A DNA stretch of 64,000 nucleotides from Candidatus Oxydemutator sp. (GTDB taxonomy: Bacteria; Pseudomonadota; Gammaproteobacteria; Poriferisulfidales; Oxydemutatoraceae), in contig OZ241883.1 of NCBI GenBank assembly GCA_965203445.1, forward strand, positions 768,001 to 832,000, in the 5' to 3' direction. How positions within the stretch are numbered: the first letter of the stretch is position 1; every line of letters starts with the position of its first letter. The notes under the pieces are model-generated. The model ran no database searches, was not told where the DNA came from, and saw only the letters and a program-made list of their open reading frames with translations. The position numbers and the translations under genes were made by a program. Below, in pieces: positions 54,705-60,141 of the stretch.

Positions 54705-56090
54705 TTACTGCGGGCGCAACGCGAGAAACATCGCGCGCTTGCCGCGCAGCAGATTCAACAGGATCGGCTGGCTTTTTTTGACGAGACGGCGAAAACTCTC
54801 TAGGTCGGACACCGGGCGGCGACTGACCGACAGGATCAGGTCGCCGCTGCGCAGGCCGTTGCGGCGCGCCGGGCTGCCGGGCGCGACTTCCTTGATCAGG
54901 ATGCCGGCGCGCTTCGGCCCTTCTTGCTCCTGCACGACCAGCTGGGCGCCGGCCAGCCTGCGGTCTATGCGCCCGCCTTCGGTCGCCTCGACCTTGCGCG
55001 CGACGATGACCGCGCTGATGTCCAACCTTTCGCCGTCGCGCAGCACCCCAAGCTCGACCTCGGAACCGACGCGCAACAGACCGATGTAGTTGCGCATGTC
55101 GGCGCTGTTCTCAATCGGATCGCCGTCCACCGAGAGCACGACGTCGCCCGATTTCAAGCCGGCTTTGTCGGCCGCGGAGTCCGGTTCCACCTCGACGATG
55201 ACCGCGCCTTTCTGGCGCTCAAGACCGAAGGCCTCGGCCAGATCCGGCGTCAGCGGCTGGACGACCACGCCCAGGCGCCCGCGCCGGACTTCGCCGTGAT
55301 CGATCAGCTGCCTCGTGATGTTCATCGCCATGTTGACTGGAATCGCAAAACCGATGCCGATGTTGGCGTTGGGTCCCAGGATCGCGGTGTTGACGCCGAT
55401 CAACTCGCCCTTCAGGTTGATCAGCGCGCCGCCCGAATTGCCCGGGTTGATCGAGGCGTCGGTCTGGATGAAATCCTCGTAGGATTCGATGCCCAGCCCG
55501 CTGCGACCGAGCGCGCTGATGATGCCGAGGGTCACCGTCTGCCCAAGACGAAACGGGTTGCCGATCGCGACCGCGAAATCGCCGACTTGCAGTTGTTCCG
55601 AATCGCCGACCGGGATCTCGACGAGATCGTCGGCTTCGATCCGGATGACCGCGACGTCGGCCTCGGGGTCGGCGCCGACTACCTCGGCGCTGAAACGCCT
55701 GCCGTCGCCCAGCGTGACGTAGACGTCGTCGGCACCGTCTATCACGTGGTGGTTGGTGATCACGTAGCCTTCGTCGGCGTCTATGATGACGCCCGAACCG
55801 ATGCCGCTGCGGCGGCGCTCGCGCGTATCGTCGCGCGAGCGCGGCGGCTGCTCGAAGAAGCGCCGGAAAAACGGATCGTTGGAAAAGGGAAAGTTGCGCG
55901 AACGCCTGACCATCACGGTCTTCTCGGTCGAGATGTTGACGACCGCCGGCAGCGCCTTTTCCAGGATCGGCGCGAGCGTCGGGACGCCGCCGACTTCCGG
56001 CAACGCCGCGCGCCCGGGCGGCGCGCTCAGCGACAACGCAAAAACCACAGCCGGCAGCCAGCCGGCGACAACGGATTGCAGTCTGTTCAT
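54705..56090 (-). CDS. DegQ/DegP (HtrA) periplasmic serine protease
   Basis: Signal peptide, GSGVII, TNHHV, IQTDASINPGNSGGAL, two PDZ domains. Confidence 0.95.
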   Translation of the reverse strand: MNRLQSVVAGWLPAVVFALSLSAPPGRAALPEVGGVPTLAPILEKALPAVVNISTEKTVMVRRSRNFPFSNDPFFRRFFEQPPRSRDDTRERRRSGIGSGVIIDADEGYVITNHHVIDGADDVYVTLGDGRRFSAEVVGADPEADVAVIRIEADDLVEIPVGDSEQLQVGDFAVAIGNPFRLGQTVTLGIISALGRSGLGIESYEDFIQTDASINPGNSGGALINLKGELIGVNTAILGPNANIGIGFAIPVNMAMNITRQLIDHGEVRRGRLGVVVQPLTPDLAEAFGLERQKGAVIVEVEPDSAADKAGLKSGDVVLSVDGDPIENSADMRNYIGLLRVGSEVELGVLRDGERLDISAVIVARKVEATEGGRIDRRLAGAQLVVQEQEGPKRAGILIKEVAPGSPARRNGLRSGDLILSVSRRPVSDLESFRRLVKKSQPILLNLLRGKRAMFLALRPQ

Positions 56091-56196
56091 CAGTGCATTT
56101 TACTATGAACGTCGCGCGGTGCTTGTGGCTTAGCCGCTCGGGCGCGGCGCCGAGGACGGCCGGCGCGCGCGATTCACCGCGTCGCCGGTTGCCGAC

Positions 56197-56239
56197 AAAA
56201 ACGGGCGCCGCGCCCGCCGCGTGAGGCGGGCGCGGCGCC
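56197..56239 (-). terminator. Rho-independent terminator of the hsp20 gene
   Basis: 15-bp GC stem (56204-56218 / 56225-56239) followed on the minus strand by a T5 run (56197-56201). Confidence 0.75.
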
Positions 56240-56266
56240 GCAACACGTCACCGCTACGGCGAAGAC

Positions 56267-56695
56267 TCAGGACACTTCGACCGTGATTTTTTTCGGCAAC
56301 ACTTCCTCTTTCTTGCCGATGGTGATGGTCAACACGCCGTCTTTGCTGTTGGCGGAGATGCTCTCGGTGTCGGCCACCGCGGGCAGCGTGAAACGCCGCT
56401 GGTAGCTGCCGCTTATGCGCTCGACGTGGATGTACTCGCCGTCTTCTCCGCCGTTGTCACGACGGCGTTCCTCGGCGTGCTTCGCGTTGACGACGAGTTC
56501 GTCGTCTTCTACGTGCACGTCTATGCCGTCAGGCGTAACCCCCGGCAGGTCGAGCAGGAAAGTCCAGCCCTTGTCGTTTTCCCTGACGTCTACCGCCGGC
56601 GTCGCCGGACGGGACACGTCGGCGGCGGCGTGCGAAGTCGCGCCCAGCCACCTTCTCATGCCGTCAAAAAACGGATCGTAGTTTGTCAGATACAT
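56267..56695 (-). CDS. Small heat shock protein (Hsp20/alpha-crystallin)
   Basis: PAVDVRE, DLPGV, ERISGSYQRRFTLP, DGVLTI; AGGAGG RBS at 56702-56707. Confidence 0.93.
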   Translation of the reverse strand: MYLTNYDPFFDGMRRWLGATSHAAADVSRPATPAVDVRENDKGWTFLLDLPGVTPDGIDVHVEDDELVVNAKHAEERRRDNGGEDGEYIHVERISGSYQRRFTLPAVADTESISANSKDGVLTITIGKKEEVLPKKITVEVS

Positions 56696-56734
56696 GTTTC
56701 ACCTCCTCGCGTTTCGGTTCGCGGTTACTCCCAA

Positions 56735-56762
56735 ATCTGGGGGCGGAGAAAAAAAATTCAAG
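56735..56762 (-). promoter_or_regulatory. Sigma32 (RpoH)-type promoter of hsp20
   Basis: Minus strand CTTGAA-N14-CCCCAGAT, close to the consensus CTTGAA-N13-17-CCCCATNT. Confidence 0.75.
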
Positions 56763-56796
56763 GGCGCATCCGTGCCGCCGCGGTTATTTGCGCGGG

Positions 56797-57300
56797 TTAC
56801 TTGCGCGCGCCGCGACGCTCCTCGAAACGCCCGGCGTCGCGGTTCTTGACGACGCGGTCGCCGTCGAACACGGTGCCGTTCATTGCGACGTATACGCCCG
56901 GCGCCAGCAGTTGCACCGCGGCCAGCGCAAAACCGGCGTTGAACGCGGCGTCACTGTCTCGAAAGCGCGCCGGGGTCGCGGCCCCGGTCAGCACCACGGT
57001 CTTGCCGGCGACGGCGTCGCCGGCGAGCAGCGCGCGCGCGGTGTCGGCCATCGTGTCGGTGCCGTGGGTTACGACGAAGCGCCGGTTCGGGTCGCCGGCT
57101 ATGCGCTCGCGCAACAGGCGGCGGTCGTCGTCGGTCACGTCGAGACTGTCCTTGCCGATGAGCGCCTCGACGCGGTAATCGAAGACGACGTGCGCACCCT
57201 CTAGCAGCGCGCCGATCTGCGGCTCGCCGATACGGTAATCGCTGAGCGCGTCGTAGTAATTTTTGTCGAAAGTGCCGCCGGTGGCGAGTATGATGATCAT
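56797..57300 (-). CDS. Short asparaginase-domain protein
   Basis: ILATGGTFDK, KDSLD, VTHGTDTM, VVLTGA, DAAFN; start ATG 57300 lies within the duplicated target. Confidence 0.88.
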   Translation of the reverse strand: MIIILATGGTFDKNYYDALSDYRIGEPQIGALLEGAHVVFDYRVEALIGKDSLDVTDDDRRLLRERIAGDPNRRFVVTHGTDTMADTARALLAGDAVAGKTVVLTGAATPARFRDSDAAFNAGFALAAVQLLAPGVYVAMNGTVFDGDRVVKNRDAGRFEERRGARK

Positions 57301-57301
57301 A

Positions 57302-58555
57302 TGGGAATTATATGCAACGTTTGACAAAGCCAAACCTTGTATCCATTTGACGCTTCACGGGCCGAGTAACCTCGCCGCCTCCACGTCCAGCAGCCCTATT
57401 CCCGAGGGCCAGTACGTTCAACGCGGCATTCACATCCGCATTATCCCTATGCCCACAAACAGTACAGATAAATACTGCCTGGGTCTTTCTGTTTTCTTTA
57501 TCAACGCTCCCGCACTTGTTGCACGTCTGGCTTGTATATGCGGGATTGATGTAATTCGTATTCGTCTTGTAGTCCAGACACTGGTGGAACTTGCCCCAAC
57601 AAGACGCCAGGATTGCGCGGTTCAATCCGGCCTTTGCGCGGACATTCGTTGCGGGGTTATCCTTCGTTCCCTTGGCCCTTCTTGTCATCCCCCGATTGTT
57701 CAACTTCTCCAGATGGACAAGAGTGTATCCGTCGGCCACCCGCCTGGATACATCGTGGCACCAGTTTTGTCTGACGTGTCGCAACGTGGCTTGTGCTCTT
57801 CGGTGCAGCAACTGTGCGCGCATCCATCTGTTCGACGCCTTGATCCCCTTCTTGTGGTTCGGCCCCTGGCGCCTGGCCATCATTCTCTGATAATGCCTGA
57901 CGCGCCGCTCATGCCTTGTCGTATCCGGCATACAATACATCGTCCCGTCGGACAATGTTACTTGGCCGACGTTGCGGTCTATGCCGACTTCCCATACAGG
58001 CTTCCATGCTTCGACCTGCTCGACCTCGTATGTGATATACGCATACCACTTGCCGTATTCCCTCTTGACCGTACCGGACTTGGGCACACCGCCCGGGTAT
58101 GGGTTATGGCCAAGCAACAACACCTCGCCTATCCTCTGGATGTGCAAATAACAACCCGTCAGACGGAACGTTCCCGCCACCAACGGGAAACTATCGGGAC
58201 GGATATGCTTGGCATGGAAACGCGGCAGGCCGCCTTCCTCTTTGCAGAATTGTTTGTATGCGATTTCTATCGGTCTCAAAGAGTTCTTTACTATGTTCGC
58301 CGAATATTCCCGTAGCCATGTATCGTCATCCCTGCGCAACTCCGTGAAACGTTTACCAAGCGAATAAAATCGGTAATCGCACTCGCCATCTGTGGCATAC
58401 TCGTTACGCAACTTGCCCACAAAGTGATTCCACACGTACCGGCACGCGCCGGCCGTACCCGACAACTTGCGGGCCTTGGCTTGCGTCTGCGGATGCAAAC
58501 GGTATCTGATTGTCCGGTGTGCTTTCATCTTGTCAAACAAAGTATATAGTTCCCA
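57302..58555 (-). mobile_element. Non-autonomous tnpB-only element with 26-bp terminal inverted repeats and 6-bp target site duplication (ATCATA)
   Basis: TIRs 57302-57327 TGGGAATTATATGCAACGTTTGACAA and revcomp of 58530-58555 TGGGAACTATATACTTTGTTTGACAA (21/26 identical); ATCATA at 57296-57301 and 58556-58561; lower GC than flanks. Confidence 0.85.
57308..58528 (-). CDS. tnpB: RNA-guided endonuclease TnpB (apparently intact RuvC)
   Basis: N-terminal YRLHP...GACRYVWN; RuvC-I GIDRNV, RuvC-II HLEKLN, Zn ribbon TSQTCNKCG...FICTVCG, RuvC-III NADVNAALNV. Confidence 0.93.
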   Translation of the reverse strand: MKAHRTIRYRLHPQTQAKARKLSGTAGACRYVWNHFVGKLRNEYATDGECDYRFYSLGKRFTELRRDDDTWLREYSANIVKNSLRPIEIAYKQFCKEEGGLPRFHAKHIRPDSFPLVAGTFRLTGCYLHIQRIGEVLLLGHNPYPGGVPKSGTVKREYGKWYAYITYEVEQVEAWKPVWEVGIDRNVGQVTLSDGTMYCMPDTTRHERRVRHYQRMMARRQGPNHKKGIKASNRWMRAQLLHRRAQATLRHVRQNWCHDVSRRVADGYTLVHLEKLNNRGMTRRAKGTKDNPATNVRAKAGLNRAILASCWGKFHQCLDYKTNTNYINPAYTSQTCNKCGSVDKENRKTQAVFICTVCGHRDNADVNAALNVLALGNRAAGRGGGEVTRPVKRQMDTRFGFVKRCI

Positions 58556-58556
58556 A

Positions 58557-58862
58557 TCATATTTTCAGGCGCTCGACGATGTGGCCGCCGACGAGATGCC
58601 GCTCGACGATCTCGTCCACGTCTTCCTTCGATTCGTAGCGGTACCAGGTGGCGTCGGGGTAGAGTACCGCGACCGGCCCCTCGGCACAACGGTCGAGGCA
58701 GCCGGCGCGGTTGACGCGGAAAGCGCCCTGCCCCGAAAGGCCGAGCGCCTTGAGCTTGCGCTTGGCGTGGTCGCGCATCGCCTCGGCGTCGTGGTCGGCG
58801 CAACAGGCGCCGTCGTCGCGCTGATTCACGCAAAAGAACAAATGACGTTGGTAGAAAGACAT
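58557..58862 (-). CDS. Thioredoxin-like [2Fe-2S] ferredoxin
   Basis: HLFFCVNQR...CC, RVNRAGCLDRCAEGPVAVLYPDATWY, HLVGG..VERL. Confidence 0.92.
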   Translation of the reverse strand: MSFYQRHLFFCVNQRDDGACCADHDAEAMRDHAKRKLKALGLSGQGAFRVNRAGCLDRCAEGPVAVLYPDATWYRYESKEDVDEIVERHLVGGHIVERLKI

Positions 58863-60141
58863 GTGGAAAAGCCGTAGCCGGACGGACAATGATACAACAC
58901 GTCCGTATGGGAGGGCGCAGCAGGAGCTGCGCGAACGGCTGCGCGCGGGCGCCGACCGCTGCGTGATGTGCGGCCTGTGCCTGCCGCATTGTCCGACCTA
59001 CGGCGCGACGCGCAACGAGGCCGATTCGCCGCGCGGGCGGGTCGCGCTGATCGCGGCCCTCGCACGCGACCAACTGCGCACCGACGCGGCGCTTGCGACG
59101 CACCTCGACCAGTGCCTGCATTGCCTGCGCTGCCAGCGGGCGTGCCCGGCGAACGTCGCCTACGCCGGGCTGATAGACGGCGCCAAGGAACTGCTGCACG
59201 GCAAGGAAGCGCTGGCGGGGCCGCCGTTGTGGTTGCGTTGGGTGGTGGATTACGCGGCGGTGCGGCGGACGTTGGCCTTGGCGACAAGGGTCTGGCAGCG
59301 AAGCGGATTACAGGCGATGACGCGGCGGAGCAAATGGTGGCGGAAGACGAAAATCGGGCGGCTGGAGGCGATGCTGCCGCGCGCGCCCGCGCGAACACGC
59401 ACACCGTGGTCAACGCAAGAGCAAGCGCCTCGCGACCGCGAGGCGCGAAGTGCCGATGCCGACCTGTTCACCGGGTGCGTCGCCGAGATCGGCGATCAGG
59501 AAACGTTGAAAGCGGCGCGGCTGCTGCTGCACGCGGCCGGGTTCACGGTGCGGGTGCCGAAGGGGCAGGGGTGTTGCGGCGCGCTCGATCAGCATTCGGG
59601 AAATCCGCATAACGCGCGGCGCTGCATCGAGCGCAACCGCGCGGCGTTCGCCGGAACGGCGCCGATTATTTCGTGCGCGACCGGCTGCGGCGCACAATGG
59701 CGGCAACACGGCGGCGAGACGGCGGCGCGGCATTGCGACGTTCTCGACTTTCTGGCGGAGCACGGGTCGGCGCTCGCGTTCAGGCCACTGCCGGGAAAAG
59801 CGGCGTTACACGTCCCGTGTACGCAGCGCGATGCCGGCGGGTCGGCGGCGGCGCAACGCTTGCTGGCGCGTGTTCCGGCCCTGGCGCTGACCGATCTTCC
59901 CGACCGCAGCGGCTGTTGCGGCGCGGCCGGCCTGCACCTGTTGCGCCAGCCTGAGATGGGCGCGCGCCTGATTGCGGATAAAATAGACGCACTCGAGGCG
60001 ATGAACGTGAAGACACTGCTTACCACCAACGTCGGGTGCGCGATGCACTTTCGGCGCGCGCTGTCCGAGCGCGGGCTCGACGTCGCCGTGCTGCATCCGG
60101 TTTCGCTGCTGTGCCGGCAGCTTGCGGGAAGGACGCCGTGA
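58861..60141 (+). CDS. GlcF-like Fe-S protein (two 4Fe-4S motifs + CCG domains); true start probably further downstream
   Basis: CVMCGLCLPHCPTY, SPRGR, CLHCLRCQRACP, FTGC, GCCGAL, GCCGAAG, NVGCAMH. Confidence 0.85.
   Translation: MWKSRSRTDNDTTRPYGRAQQELRERLRAGADRCVMCGLCLPHCPTYGATRNEADSPRGRVALIAALARDQLRTDAALATHLDQCLHCLRCQRACPANVAYAGLIDGAKELLHGKEALAGPPLWLRWVVDYAAVRRTLALATRVWQRSGLQAMTRRSKWWRKTKIGRLEAMLPRAPARTRTPWSTQEQAPRDREARSADADLFTGCVAEIGDQETLKAARLLLHAAGFTVRVPKGQGCCGALDQHSGNPHNARRCIERNRAAFAGTAPIISCATGCGAQWRQHGGETAARHCDVLDFLAEHGSALAFRPLPGKAALHVPCTQRDAGGSAAAQRLLARVPALALTDLPDRSGCCGAAGLHLLRQPEMGARLIADKIDALEAMNVKTLLTTNVGCAMHFRRALSERGLDVAVLHPVSLLCRQLAGRTP

What the first reader, a model, noticed from the sequence alone, without database searches (positions are those of the whole stretch)
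57296..58561. TnpB-only element with TG...CA terminal inverted repeats and a 6-bp target duplication: not an IS200/IS605 architecture
Seen: a 1254-bp unit filled almost entirely by an intact tnpB (start 1 nt inside one TIR boundary, stop within the other), bounded by 26-bp inverted repeats (21/26 identical, ending TGGGAA...TTCCCA) and flanked by a direct ATCATA repeat. Known: IS200/IS605 (Y1 TnpA) elements have subterminal hairpins, no TIRs and no TSD, and IS607 (serine TnpA) elements recombine at a 2-bp core. TIR plus TSD is the signature of DDE transposases. Inference: an RNA-guided nuclease carried by a non-autonomous element mobilised in trans by a DDE enzyme, or by a tyrosine recombinase with a 6-bp core. 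This would be a bacterial parallel to Fanzor capture by TIR transposons. The atypical RuvC-I motif GIDRNV may mark the clade.
Basis: partly seen in the sequence, partly recalled or inferred. Interest (0 to 1): 0.88.

Follow-up and report, generated by a model that had tools for sequence, protein, structure and literature searches.

The report
TnpB cassette riding IS1595 transposon ends
A 1.25-kb mobile cassette carries only the RNA-guided nuclease gene tnpB between the inverted-repeat ends of an IS1595-type cut-and-paste transposon, so it must borrow that transposon's enzyme to move, which is a rare arrangement in bacteria that resembles how related nucleases travel in eukaryotes.

Summary
The unit is 1252 bp (57303-58554). 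It ends GGGAAT...ATTCCC and has ~25-bp inverted repeats. It is flanked by an 8-bp target duplication, not a 6-bp one (GATCATAT/AATCATAT, 7 of 8). A contig from another public run joins 57294 directly to 58555. That is a natural empty site holding one copy of the 8-mer.

The complete 2.38-Mb genome holds 13 intact copies and 1 truncated copy, all within the same kind of ends. In 9 of 16 end pairs the 8-bp duplication is perfect, and it differs from copy to copy. The genome has no Y1 TnpA and no serine recombinase. It has one IS1595-family DDE transposase, in a 2616-bp element with the same ends and an 8-bp duplication.

TnpB relatives in MAGs of several phyla sit in the same architecture (61 of 75 intact loci). 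Related autonomous IS1595 elements share the outer 12 bp and carry lineage-specific inner repeats that match the cassette classes.

The RuvC triad is intact. The 3' end folds into a covarying omega-RNA-like structure whose last stem uses the inner repeat. Insertion sites show a TnpB-specific purine just 5' of the duplication (38 of 38), which is a TAM-like footprint.

DDE-linked prokaryotic TnpBs were published in 2023. IS1595 is not named in the texts I could read.

The parts
57303..58554 (-). The whole mobile unit (1252 bp): a tnpB-only cassette bounded by IS1595-type terminal inverted repeats.
   Evidence: The termini were fixed by comparing 13 full-length copies. They are confirmed by the empty-site contig of run X5, which skips 57295-58554. 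G+C is 53.3% against 63.6% for the genome.
57295..57302 (.). Copy of the 8-bp target-site duplication on the 3' side of tnpB (GATCATAT). It overlaps the ATG (57300-57298, minus strand) of the downstream asparaginase-like gene.
   Evidence: 7 of 8 identical to the other copy. One search shows that the empty site keeps a single copy, AATCATAT.
58555..58562 (.). Copy of the 8-bp target-site duplication on the 5' side of tnpB (AATCATAT). It overlaps the TGA stop (58559-58557, minus strand) of the upstream ferredoxin-like ORF.
57303..57328 (.). Terminal inverted repeat at the 3' end of tnpB. It has a conserved outer 12 bp (GGGAATTATATG here; family consensus GGGAATTATATA) followed by a lineage-specific inner part (CAACGTTTGACAAA).
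   Evidence: The tnpB stop codon TAA (57310-57308) is supplied by the repeat.
58529..58554 (.). Terminal inverted repeat at the 5' end of tnpB (reverse complement GGGAACTATATACTTTGTTTGACAAG). It ends 1 nt before the ATG.
57308..58528 (-). tnpB: 406 aa from ATG (MKAHRTIRY...), stop codon included. It has an intact RuvC D-E-D triad and two CxxC pairs.
   Evidence: Pfam gives Cas12f1-like_TNB 6.8e-16, HTH_OrfB_IS605 1.4e-07 and OrfB_IS605 1.4e-05 (the last below its cut-off). It matches ISDra2 TnpB 8bf8/8exa over its full length, E 1.3e-18. Motif conservation was checked in 86 relatives.
57303..57450 (-). Predicted omega-RNA (reRNA) scaffold overlapping the 3' end of tnpB and running to the element terminus.
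   Evidence: RNAalifold on 67 relatives gives 4 helices. Of the cells, 97.0% are paired against 86.6% in shuffles (0 of 500 reach the observed value). The covariation score is 0.336 against 0.157 (0 of 500). There is no Rfam match. Expression was not tested.
57315..57339 (-). Terminal hairpin of the predicted scaffold. Its 3' arm is the inner part of the terminal inverted repeat.
   Evidence: One search gives the c1 fold. The inner repeat is paired as the 3' arm in 70 of 71 relatives. One search shows that an element's own upstream arm pairs better than the arms of other repeat classes.
57283..57302 (-). Predicted guide template: the flank just beyond the 3' terminus, made of the duplication copy plus downstream host DNA. 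This is an inference.
   Evidence: The position follows from the canonical TnpB layout. It agrees with the TAM-like footprint lying directly 5' of the duplication on the other side.
58563..58565 (-). Positions -1 to -3, 5' of the duplication in tnpB orientation (AAA here). This is the site of the TAM-like footprint.
   Evidence: Position -1 is a purine in 38 of 38 perfect-duplication TnpB cassettes, against 7 of 18 or 12 of 18 for autonomous IS1595 elements.

Best explanation
The unit is a non-autonomous derivative of an IS1595-family (DDE) insertion sequence. It resembles a 'mobile insertion cassette': two ~25-bp IS1595-type terminal inverted repeats enclose a single passenger, tnpB with its omega-RNA, and no transposase.

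Shown by the data:
- The unit moves as a whole by staggered-cut DDE chemistry, which leaves an 8-bp duplication.
- Copies sit at many different AT-rich sites.
- An empty allele with one copy of the 8-mer exists in nature.
- The only transposase in the genome able to act on such ends is one IS1595-family enzyme encoded elsewhere.

Inferred:
- The outer 12 bp of the repeat is the shared cleavage end, and the inner ~13 bp is the binding site of a particular transposase lineage. The inner repeat of copy c1 (…GTTTGACAA) resembles that of IS1595 relatives in other genomes (…AACTTGACA) and not that of the resident enzyme (…AAATCTACA). This copy may therefore be stranded now.
- TnpB is an active RNA-guided nuclease. 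Its guide RNA scaffold is transcribed from the 3' end of the gene, ends at the transposon terminus, and has absorbed the inner repeat as the 3' arm of its last stem.
- The guide is read from the duplication plus the downstream flank. TnpB would cut unoccupied copies of the site that carry a purine-ended motif directly 5' of the 8-mer (a TAM). That would favour retention or copying of the cassette by recombination.
For: Architecture:
- The inverted repeat is 21 of 26.
- There are 13 intact copies plus 1 truncated copy, all ending GGGAAY...RTTCCC.
- The 8-bp flanks are identical in 9 of 16 end pairs in this genome and in 30 of 61 related loci, with a shifted control never above 6 of 8.

Mobility:
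- Run X5 holds an empty-site contig that joins 57294 to 58555. Run X3, from another study, holds the filled left junction.
- Two copies at different sites are 1370 of 1371 identical.

Partner:
- The 2616-bp element has the same repeat and a perfect duplication, ATCAGAAA.
- It encodes an IS1595 transposase. This is the only DDE_Tnp_IS1595 hit in the genome.
- The genome has no Y1_Tnp and no Resolvase.
- Eighteen autonomous IS1595 elements in this genome and its family relatives share the outer repeat and an 8-bp duplication. Their inner repeats match cassette classes; for example, the G001 element matches c6.
- The IS1595 family is described as usually having 8-bp duplications, and its eukaryotic relative Merlin as having GG termini (PMC8101967, introduction passage).

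Nuclease and RNA:
- The D-E-D triad and zinc fingers are conserved in 86 relatives.
- The protein matches ISDra2 TnpB over its full length.
- Helices in the last ~150 nt covary.
- The terminal hairpin uses the inner repeat in 70 of 71 relatives.
- An element's own arm beats at least 90% of foreign arms in 28 of 71 elements, and in 11 of 30 non-redundant repeat classes.

TAM-like footprint:
- Position -1 is a purine in 38 of 38 cassettes, and -2 is G or T in 31 of 38. There is no mirror motif on the other side.
- Autonomous elements show a purine at -1 in 7 of 18 (reverse orientation, Fisher p 2e-7) or 12 of 18 (forward, p 6e-4).
Against: - No transposition or cleavage was tested. Trans-mobilisation rests on shared ends and on the lack of any other transposase.
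- The resident transposase's inner repeat (class A) differs from that of c1 and of most cassettes. The near-identical pair e25k/e1131k carries class B ends, for which no cognate enzyme is present. Either cross-mobilisation happens or an enzyme has been lost.
- c1's repeats are only 21 of 26 and its duplication 7 of 8, which fits an old and possibly immobile copy.
- The exact empty site is not seen in the three same-genus genomes. They have 84-229 bp there and lack the ferredoxin-like ORF.
- The RNA helices lie in coding sequence, the sequences are related, and the structure was derived from the same alignment, so the statistics overstate support (caveats).
- Terminal-hairpin energies are only modestly below shuffles: median z -0.86, and 17 of 71 below -2.
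- The footprint is short (about 2-3 informative positions), unlike the 4-5-nt TAMs of studied TnpBs (recalled). It could reflect another orientation-dependent selection.
- No RNA data could be laid on the element.
Confidence: 0.85

Rival explanations
1. It is an ordinary IS200/IS605 (IS1341-type) or IS607 element, moved by a Y1 HUH or serine TnpA. On this view the apparent inverted repeat and flanking repeat are chance, or reflect a TAM repeated at the right end.
For: tnpB is of the ISDra2 type. There is a hairpin just inside the 3' end. With a single copy, a flanking repeat cannot be told apart from an end that resembles its target.
Against: - Thirteen copies have the same inverted termini but different 8-bp flanking repeats.
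- The empty allele holds exactly one 8-mer.
- No hairpin is apparent at the 5' end (by eye).
- No fixed 4-5-nt target precedes the element.
- The complete genome has no PF01797 and no PF00239, while the control genomes gave hits.
- IS200/IS605 and IS607 lack inverted repeats and duplications (PMC13565253, sections 5.1-5.2, passages).
Confidence: 0.02
2. tnpB inserted, by its own homing or by an IS605-type event, into the middle of pre-existing miniature inverted-repeat elements. The repeats and the duplication would then belong to the MITE and not to a tnpB-carrying unit.
For: Short elements with the same ends exist in the genome: 163 bp at 113341-113503 and 180 bp at 757576-757755. About 30 unpaired terminal motifs are present.
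Against: - The empty allele in run X5 has no MITE, only the bare target.
- Whole units, ends included, are 1370 of 1371 identical at two different sites.
- The 180-bp element is a deletion derivative that still holds the first ~105 nt of tnpB.
- All 14 TnpB hits lie within such ends, and the tnpB stop codon lies inside the repeat.
Confidence: 0.03
3. The cassette is mobilised by the DDE enzyme as described, but TnpB has no homing role. It would be inert or decaying cargo, or an exapted RNA-guided regulator (TldR-like), and the purine at -1 would come from something other than a TAM.
For: [quoted passage not shown] This argument is made in PMC13565253, section 6.2. The footprint is short. No expression or activity data exist.
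Against: - There are 13 intact ORFs in one genome and 75 intact of 80 related loci.
- Catalytic residues are conserved, whereas exapted TnpBs are reported to be inactivated (PMC10691335 passages).
- RNA structure is conserved at the 3' end.
- Intact tnpB cassettes outnumber the transposase 13 to 1.
- The -1 constraint is absent from tnpB-less elements that use the same ends.
Confidence: 0.15
4. The unit is moved by a tyrosine recombinase that exchanges strands in a 6-bp core.
For: In this one copy a 6-bp ATCATA stands on both sides.
Against: The repeat is 8 bp and differs at every copy, so there is no conserved core. The partner element with the same ends encodes a DDE transposase and no integrase.
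Confidence: 0.01

Closest known systems
DDE-transposase-associated prokaryotic TnpBs (branches DDE-1 to DDE-6 of Altae-Tran et al. 2023, PMC10691335; listed as ISL2, IS630 and IS1031 in Kojima 2026, PMC13565253)
   Same: A prokaryotic TnpB sits inside a transposon with inverted terminal repeats. The 3' end of tnpB lies close to a transposon end. Solo TnpBs are found within ends like those of transposase-bearing elements, which suggests mobilisation in trans (passages read).
   Different: - The transposase family here is IS1595. That name and ISXO2 do not occur in the main text of PMC10691335. The supplements, which may list the families, were closed.
- TnpB and the transposase were never found within one pair of ends: 61 cassettes with two recognisable ends, and 18 autonomous elements with a perfect duplication.
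- Several repeat classes match several transposase lineages.
- The insertion sites carry a TAM-like footprint.
Fanzor1 and Fanzor2* elements in eukaryotic TIR transposons (Bao and Jurka 2013, PMC3627910; PMC10711439)
   Same: A TnpB-family nuclease is carried by cut-and-paste elements with inverted repeats and duplications, and is often non-autonomous. For example, MuDr-type ends occur without the transposase. Transposase-constrained terminal bases are built into the guide-RNA scaffold (PMC10711439, section 27).
   Different: - The host is bacterial and the protein is the size and type of ISDra2 TnpB.
- In Fanzor1 the duplication is predicted to be part of the scaffold. Here the footprint lies directly 5' of the duplication, which suggests that the guide starts at the first duplicated base (inference).
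- Merlin, the eukaryotic relative of IS1595, is not among the superfamilies named for Fanzor1 in PMC3627910.
IS1595 family insertion sequences and their passenger-carrying forms
   Same: The termini begin GG(G), the inverted repeats are ~25 bp, and the duplication is 8 bp. The partner encodes Zn_ribbon_IS1595 plus DDE_Tnp_IS1595 (family description in PMC8101967).
   Different: The cassette has no transposase. Its only gene is tnpB. My recollection that this family includes passenger-carrying members (Siguier et al. 2009) comes from no call.
Mobile insertion cassettes (MICs; name and definition recalled, not taken from any call)
   Same: IS ends flank a passenger gene with no transposase, and movement depends on the parent IS.
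   Different: The passenger is itself a mobile-element nuclease with a guide RNA that overlaps one end. No paper in the library holds both 'TnpB' and 'mobile insertion cassette'.
IS200/IS605 IS1341-group tnpB-only elements
   Same: The element carries only tnpB, of ISDra2 type, with a structured RNA at its 3' end.
   Different: Those elements have no inverted repeats, make no duplication, insert next to a fixed TAM and depend on a Y1 TnpA. None of this holds here.

Membership tests
IS200/IS605 (IS1341 group) | No terminal inverted repeats; subterminal hairpins at both ends | tested here: not met
   Inverted repeats of ~25 bp are present in 13 of 13 full copies. A hairpin is found only at the 3' end. 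The 5' ends were read by eye.
IS200/IS605 (IS1341 group) | No target duplication; insertion 3' of a fixed tetra- or pentanucleotide | tested here: not met
   The duplication is 8 bp and variable. The empty site holds one copy.
IS200/IS605 (IS1341 group) | Y1 HUH TnpA available in cis or in trans | tested here: not met
   PF01797 gives 0 hits in the complete single-contig genome, while 6 of 14 control genomes gave hits.
IS607 | Serine recombinase TnpA; no inverted repeats and no duplication | tested here: not met
   PF00239 gives 0 hits, while 12 of 14 control genomes gave hits. Inverted repeats and a duplication are present.
IS1595 family (as a non-autonomous derivative) | Terminal inverted repeats beginning GG and shared with a transposase-bearing element | tested here: met
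   The outer 12 bp are the same in the cassettes, in the resident 2616-bp element and in autonomous elements of related genomes.
IS1595 family (as a non-autonomous derivative) | 8-bp target-site duplication | tested here: met
   The family description is in PMC8101967.
IS1595 family (as a non-autonomous derivative) | Encodes a Zn-ribbon plus DDE_Tnp_IS1595 transposase | tested here: not met
   The cassette encodes only TnpB. The transposase lies elsewhere. The unit is therefore a derivative and not an autonomous member.
IS1595 family (as a non-autonomous derivative) | Actually moved by that transposase | not testable with these tools
   Support is indirect only: shared ends, no other transposase, polymorphic and near-identical copies.
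TnpB / OMEGA RNA-guided nuclease | RuvC D-E-D triad and zinc finger | tested here: met
   Conserved in 86 relatives. The catalytic residues align with those of ISDra2 TnpB.
TnpB / OMEGA RNA-guided nuclease | Structured guide-RNA scaffold at the 3' end, reaching the transposon end | tested here: inconclusive
   Covarying helices and a terminal stem are predicted. There is no Rfam match and no RNA data.
TnpB / OMEGA RNA-guided nuclease | TAM next to the target | tested here: inconclusive
   The footprint is a purine at -1 in 38 of 38 cassettes and G or T at -2 in 31 of 38. It is absent from tnpB-less elements. No assay was done.
DDE-associated TnpB (Altae-Tran 2023) | Inverted terminal repeats; solo TnpB within transposase-type ends | tested here: met
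   Whether this clade is one of the six published branches could not be checked, because the supplements were closed.

The most novel reading that the evidence does not exclude
A whole clade of canonical, catalytically intact TnpB/omega-RNA systems may have become an obligate rider on IS1595-family DDE transposons. The clade has spread across several bacterial phyla, judging from MAG record titles. It never shares its ends with the transposase and outnumbers it 13 to 1. Its ends are swapped to match whichever transposase lineage is at hand. Its guide RNA has taken the transposase-binding repeat into its last stem. Its insertion sites carry a natural TAM footprint, which implies RNA-guided homing or drive for a cut-and-paste element that makes a variable 8-bp duplication. 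This would be a DDE family not yet linked to TnpB in print, and a tractable bacterial model for what Fanzor-type nucleases do for TIR transposons.
Probability: 0.45. Interest if true: 0.75.

Novelty: new member of a known kind. Interest (0 to 1): 0.6.

Why it matters
TnpB is thought to pay its way by re-cutting the scarless donor site left by IS605 or IS607 excision. Why such a nuclease should help a DDE transposon, which already leaves a break, is an open point raised in the 2026 review (PMC13565253, section 6.2). It is also central to understanding Fanzors in eukaryotes.

This locus offers a bacterial case with several useful properties:
- many natural copies;
- an identified partner transposase;
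- a natural empty allele;
- a predicted guide RNA that overlaps the transposase-binding site;
- a site footprint that predicts the TAM.

All of these can be tested in E. coli. The case also shows that tnpB-only genes annotated as 'IS200/IS605 family' can belong to a different transposon family. Finally, these compact (406-aa) nucleases come with a predicted scaffold boundary, which is useful for characterising them.

Tried and rejected
- **Variable inner repeat as guide.** I considered that the variable inner repeat might be the guide and that TnpB targets its own ends. I rejected this. The arm upstream of the hairpin shares only about 6 nt with the 5'-end repeat (c2 and c4, read). The inner repeats match transposase lineages instead.
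- **A -35 promoter box at -6 to -1.** I considered this as the source of the footprint and rejected it. C at -2, as in TTGACA, occurs in only 1 of 38 sites. The promoter scan of the region gave 3 weak matches against 1.1 ± 1.1 in shuffles.
- **Stop codons or Shine-Dalgarno sites of host genes.** I considered these as the source of the footprint. ATG or AGG-like words are common near -4 to -1 (by eye). A sharply placed 38 of 38 purine that is absent from tnpB-less elements fits a positional requirement better. This alternative is not excluded.
- **Empty site in same-genus genomes.** G001-G003 have only 84-229 bp between the two neighbouring genes and no ferredoxin-like ORF, so they give no exact empty site.
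- **Rfam.** There was no match at E up to 1 in 57200-58650.
- **RNA evidence.** No RNA holder was listed. All four runs laid were contigs, so nothing can be said about expression or RNA ends.
- **Literature searches for prior description.**
  - 'TnpB' + 'IS1595': 9 papers, none on this association judging from the listing.
  - 'TnpB' + 'IS1016': 0 papers.
  - 'TnpB' + 'mobile insertion cassette': 0 papers.
  - 'IS1595 family' + 'passenger': 14 papers, none on TnpB judging from the listing.
  - '1595' and 'ISXO2' anywhere in PMC10691335: 0 occurrences.
  - Supplements of PMC10691335 (Additional Files 10 and 11, Table S1) could name the DDE families, and I could not see them.
- I ran no global TnpB tree against IS605 and IS607 references, no structure prediction, and none of the search for homologous proteins, the search of protein representatives or the protein-atlas search.
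- **Rows dropped.**
  - Of 80 related loci, 5 with broken ORFs and 14 with a poorly recognised end were left out of the 61.
  - L052 was dropped from the RNA sets because its end was misplaced.
  - The four long-lineage G000 copies were left out of alignment A1.
  - Only sites with an 8 of 8 duplication entered the logo.

Full report
**What is in the window.** Between 57295 and 58562 lies a 1252-bp unit (57303-58554). It is filled by one intact minus-strand gene, with ATG at 58528 and stop TAA at 57310-57308.
- Pfam identifies the 406-aa product as a TnpB: Cas12f1-like_TNB 6.8e-16, HTH_OrfB_IS605 1.4e-07, and OrfB_IS605 1.4e-05, the last below its cut-off.
- It aligns over its full length with the solved ISDra2 TnpB (8bf8/8exa, residues 7-381 against 7-377, E 1.3e-18).
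- ATCATA stands on both sides.
- The neighbours are an asparaginase-like gene (Pfam Asparaginase 2.6e-23) and a small ferredoxin-like ORF (2Fe-2S_thioredx 1e-4, below its cut-off). Both are on the same strand as tnpB.

**Copies in the same genome fix the boundaries.** The window lies in a complete single-contig genome of 2.38 Mb.
- A DNA search found 21 matching places, eight of them full-length at 75-81% identity.
- Reading the ends and scanning for the terminal 12-mer showed that every copy ends GGGAAYTATATA...TATATARTTCCC.
- The directly flanking 8 bp are repeated. They are identical in 9 of 16 end pairs, 7 of 8 in two more (this copy among them), and different from copy to copy.
- The 12-mer with at most 1 mismatch occurs 30 + 32 times. 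My composition estimate for a 63.6% G+C genome is under one per strand.
- All 14 hits of the TnpB zinc-ribbon (TNB) domain in the genome are these units: 13 intact and one truncated.

**A natural empty site.** Contigs of four public runs were laid on 56600-59300.
- A 2905-nt contig of run X5 covers 56815-57294 and 58555-59268 with adjacent record coordinates. It skips exactly 1260 bases (one 8-mer plus the 1252-bp element) with nothing between.
- On the minus strand the empty allele reads ...AAAATATGATTATC... The TGA of the ferredoxin-like ORF overlaps the ATG of the asparaginase-like gene. The duplication lets both genes stay intact after insertion.
- A contig of run X3, from a different study, spans the filled left junction. 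The insertion is therefore polymorphic among related populations.
- The three same-genus genomes searched gave no exact empty site. They have only 84-229 bp here and lack the ferredoxin-like ORF.

**The partner.** One pair of the same termini, 2616 bp apart at G000:C1:1978350-1980965, has a perfect duplication, ATCAGAAA.
- It encloses a 307-aa protein with DDE_Tnp_IS1595 (1.2e-43) and Zn_ribbon_IS1595.
- It also encloses a 449-aa fusion of an N6/N4 DNA methylase with an HNH domain.
- This is the only DDE_Tnp_IS1595 hit in the genome. A 43%-identical N-terminal fragment lies at 512999-513433.
- The genome has no Y1 TnpA and no resolvase-type serine recombinase. Both searches gave hits in control genomes.
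- The IS1595 family is described as usually having 8-bp duplications and a zinc-finger plus DDE_Tnp_IS1595 transposase. Its eukaryotic relative Merlin has GG termini and 8-9-bp duplications (PMC8101967, introduction passage).
- The unit is therefore a transposase-less derivative of an IS1595-family element with tnpB as its only passenger.

**Why the inner repeat differs between copies.** The repeat has a conserved outer 12 bp and about 13 inner bp. The inner part differs between copies but matches between the two ends of each copy. There are at least seven classes in this genome. I first suspected RNA or guide pairing, but the evidence points to transposase specificity.
- IS1595 transposase homologues occur in 17 of 19 genomes of the family, the window's own genome included.
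- Their elements share the outer 12 bp and the 8-bp duplication. Eighteen elements, the resident one included, have a perfect duplication.
- They carry their own inner repeats, several of which match cassette classes. The G001 element matches copy c6. The G004, G015, G017 and G018 elements (...AACTTGACA) resemble the copy in the window.
- The inner part is therefore best read as the lineage-specific transposase-binding site (inference).
- The ends are modular. Repeat classes A and B each occur on two TnpB lineages that are only 58-67% identical. TnpBs that are 83% identical carry different classes.
- Two class B copies are 1370 of 1371 identical at different sites, although no class B transposase is present. 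This points to cross-mobilisation or to a lost enzyme.
- The window's copy (repeats 21 of 26, duplication 7 of 8, no cognate enzyme in the genome) may be stranded.

**Spread.** A scan of one genome per species returned 80 loci with TnpBs 36-59% identical to this one. They lie in MAGs whose record titles name Gammaproteobacteria (several groups), Rhodothermales, Thermodesulfobacteriota, Dadabacteria, Spirochaetia, Poribacteria and Caldilineaceae.
- 75 of the 80 have intact ORFs.
- 61 have both termini matching at least 10 of 13 positions of GGGAATTATATAC.
- The units are 1.2-1.43 kb, which means solo tnpB.
- The 8-bp flanks are identical in 30 of the 61 and 7 of 8 in 5 more. A control 8-mer shifted by 8 nt peaks at 2 of 8 and never exceeds 6.
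- No transposase lies inside any unit. One locus has a separate IS next to it.

**The nuclease and its RNA.**
- The RuvC residues (G-x-D-[RM]-N, x-x-E-x-L, N-A-D-x-N-A-A) and two CxxC pairs are kept in the 86 proteins aligned, judging from the dozen most frequent variants listed for each motif.
- ISDra2 has GVDVGI where this protein has GIDRNV.
- RNAalifold on the last 160 nt of 67 units predicts four helices. Of the cells, 97.0% are paired against 86.6 ± 0.6 in shuffles (0 of 500). The covariation score is 0.336 against 0.157 (0 of 500). Slid controls reach at most 47% paired.
- These helices lie in coding sequence, the rows are related, and the structure came from the same alignment. This is support, not proof.
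- After a conserved GUGAAnCGUsAAAUnGAUAC comes a hairpin of variable sequence whose 3' arm is the inner repeat. It is closed by AUAC/GUAU and followed by AUAAUUCCC and the duplication.
- The inner repeat is paired in this way in 70 of 71 units, though energies are only modestly below shuffles (median z -0.86).
- An element's own upstream arm pairs better with its repeat than arms from other classes do: -9.38 against -6.99 kcal/mol. The own arm beats at least 90% of foreign arms in 28 of 71 elements, and in 11 of 30 non-redundant classes.
- The same bases thus seem to serve the transposase as DNA and the guide RNA as structure. This is what PMC10711439 (section 27) proposes for Fanzor and IS607 scaffolds.
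- Rfam has no match. No RNA run could be laid.

**A TAM-like footprint.** I aligned 38 reconstructed targets with a perfect duplication, in tnpB orientation.
- Position -1 is a purine in 38 of 38 (G 27, A 11).
- Position -2 is G or T in 31 of 38, and position -3 is A in 20 of 38.
- The first duplicated base is A in 31 of 38.
- No mirror motif appears on the other side.
- Seven further sites with a 7 of 8 duplication, read by eye, also have a purine at -1.
- In 18 autonomous IS1595 elements the first-base A preference is present in one orientation (12 of 18). The purine at -1 is not: 7 of 18 in that orientation (Fisher p 2e-7) and 12 of 18 in the other (p 6e-4).
- The constraint therefore travels with tnpB and not with the ends.
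- Its place is where a TAM should lie if the guide starts at the first duplicated base, that is, if the scaffold ends at the transposon terminus. The element's own 3' junction, which ends ...CCC, would lack it.
- I read this as selection for sites that TnpB can re-cut when they are empty. This is inference, and other orientation-dependent selection is not excluded.

**Comparison with what is known.**
- IS200/IS605 and IS607 have neither inverted repeats nor duplications (PMC13565253). Membership in those families fails on every mobility feature tested.
- The idea is not new in kind. Altae-Tran et al. 2023 report six DDE-associated TnpB branches, all with inverted terminal repeats. They also report solo TnpBs within ends nearly identical to those of transposase-bearing systems, and suggest mobilisation in trans (PMC10691335). 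Kojima 2026 lists their families as ISL2, IS630 and IS1031.
- IS1595 is not named in either main text. No paper in the library links TnpB with IS1595, IS1016 or mobile insertion cassettes in this sense. The supplements that could settle the matter were closed.
- I therefore file this as a new member of a known kind. Added points of interest are the exclusive trans arrangement, the modular ends, the RNA-repeat overlap and the footprint.

**Verdict.**
It is real, but the register is shifted by one base and the duplication is 8 bp.
The tyrosine-recombinase alternative is rejected.
- Novelty is moderate.
- Confidence is about 0.85 in the architecture and partner, and about 0.5 in the homing role of TnpB.

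Noticed in passing
L032:1-2556 (G000:C1:1978410-1980965; the whole element is G000:C1:1978350-1980965, outside the window): The resident autonomous IS1595-family element carries a 449-aa passenger that fuses an N6/N4 DNA methylase (6.4e-50) to an HNH endonuclease domain (6.3e-12). A same-genus genome has a 2534-bp element with the same gene pair but a different inner repeat (L035; the MTase there was identified only by reading the ORF)..
   Followed up: partly
G000:C1, about 30 places outside the window, for example 68723, 436463, 937490, 1176262 and 1533995: Unpaired copies of the 13-nt terminal motif GGGAATTATATAC stand alone in G+C-rich surroundings. Several have a partial second copy directly outside them (for example GAATTATAT|GGGAATTATATAC). 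They could be scars of end-to-end insertions or deletions. They could also be retained -10-like boxes, since the reverse complement contains TATAAT. This is unexplained.
   Followed up: partly
G000:C1:113341-113503 and G000:C1:757576-757755 (outside the window): Two miniature elements with the same ends. The 163-bp one has an unrelated interior. The 180-bp one is a deletion derivative that keeps the first ~105 nt of tnpB and the terminal hairpin but not most of the predicted RNA scaffold.
   Followed up: partly
window 58557-58889 (minus strand): The 110-aa ferredoxin-like ORF upstream of the element is missing at the syntenic place in three same-genus genomes, which have 84-229 bp between the neighbouring genes. 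It is present in the empty-site contig of run X5 and matches DNA in genomes of another family.
   Followed up: partly
L036:1033-1237: Next to an IS1595 element of a related genome there are four copies, 68 bp apart, of a unit that starts with a terminus-like GGGAATTGTCTAGTGCAGAA. The first copy is diverged. I did not look further.
   Followed up: no
window 57311-58528 (protein residues ~285-310): After RuvC-II this TnpB has an insertion (…TRRAKGTKDNPATNVRAKAGLNRAIL…) that is absent from ISDra2 TnpB. It aligns well with a 540-aa solved chain deposited only as 'Transposase' (9j09_A, E 1.9e-21).
   Followed up: no
window 54705-56695 (minus strand): The ORFs just downstream of the asparaginase-like gene look like a small heat-shock protein (56267-56695) and a DegP/HtrA-type protease (54705-56090). 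This is from reading the translations only, and neither was scanned.
   Followed up: no
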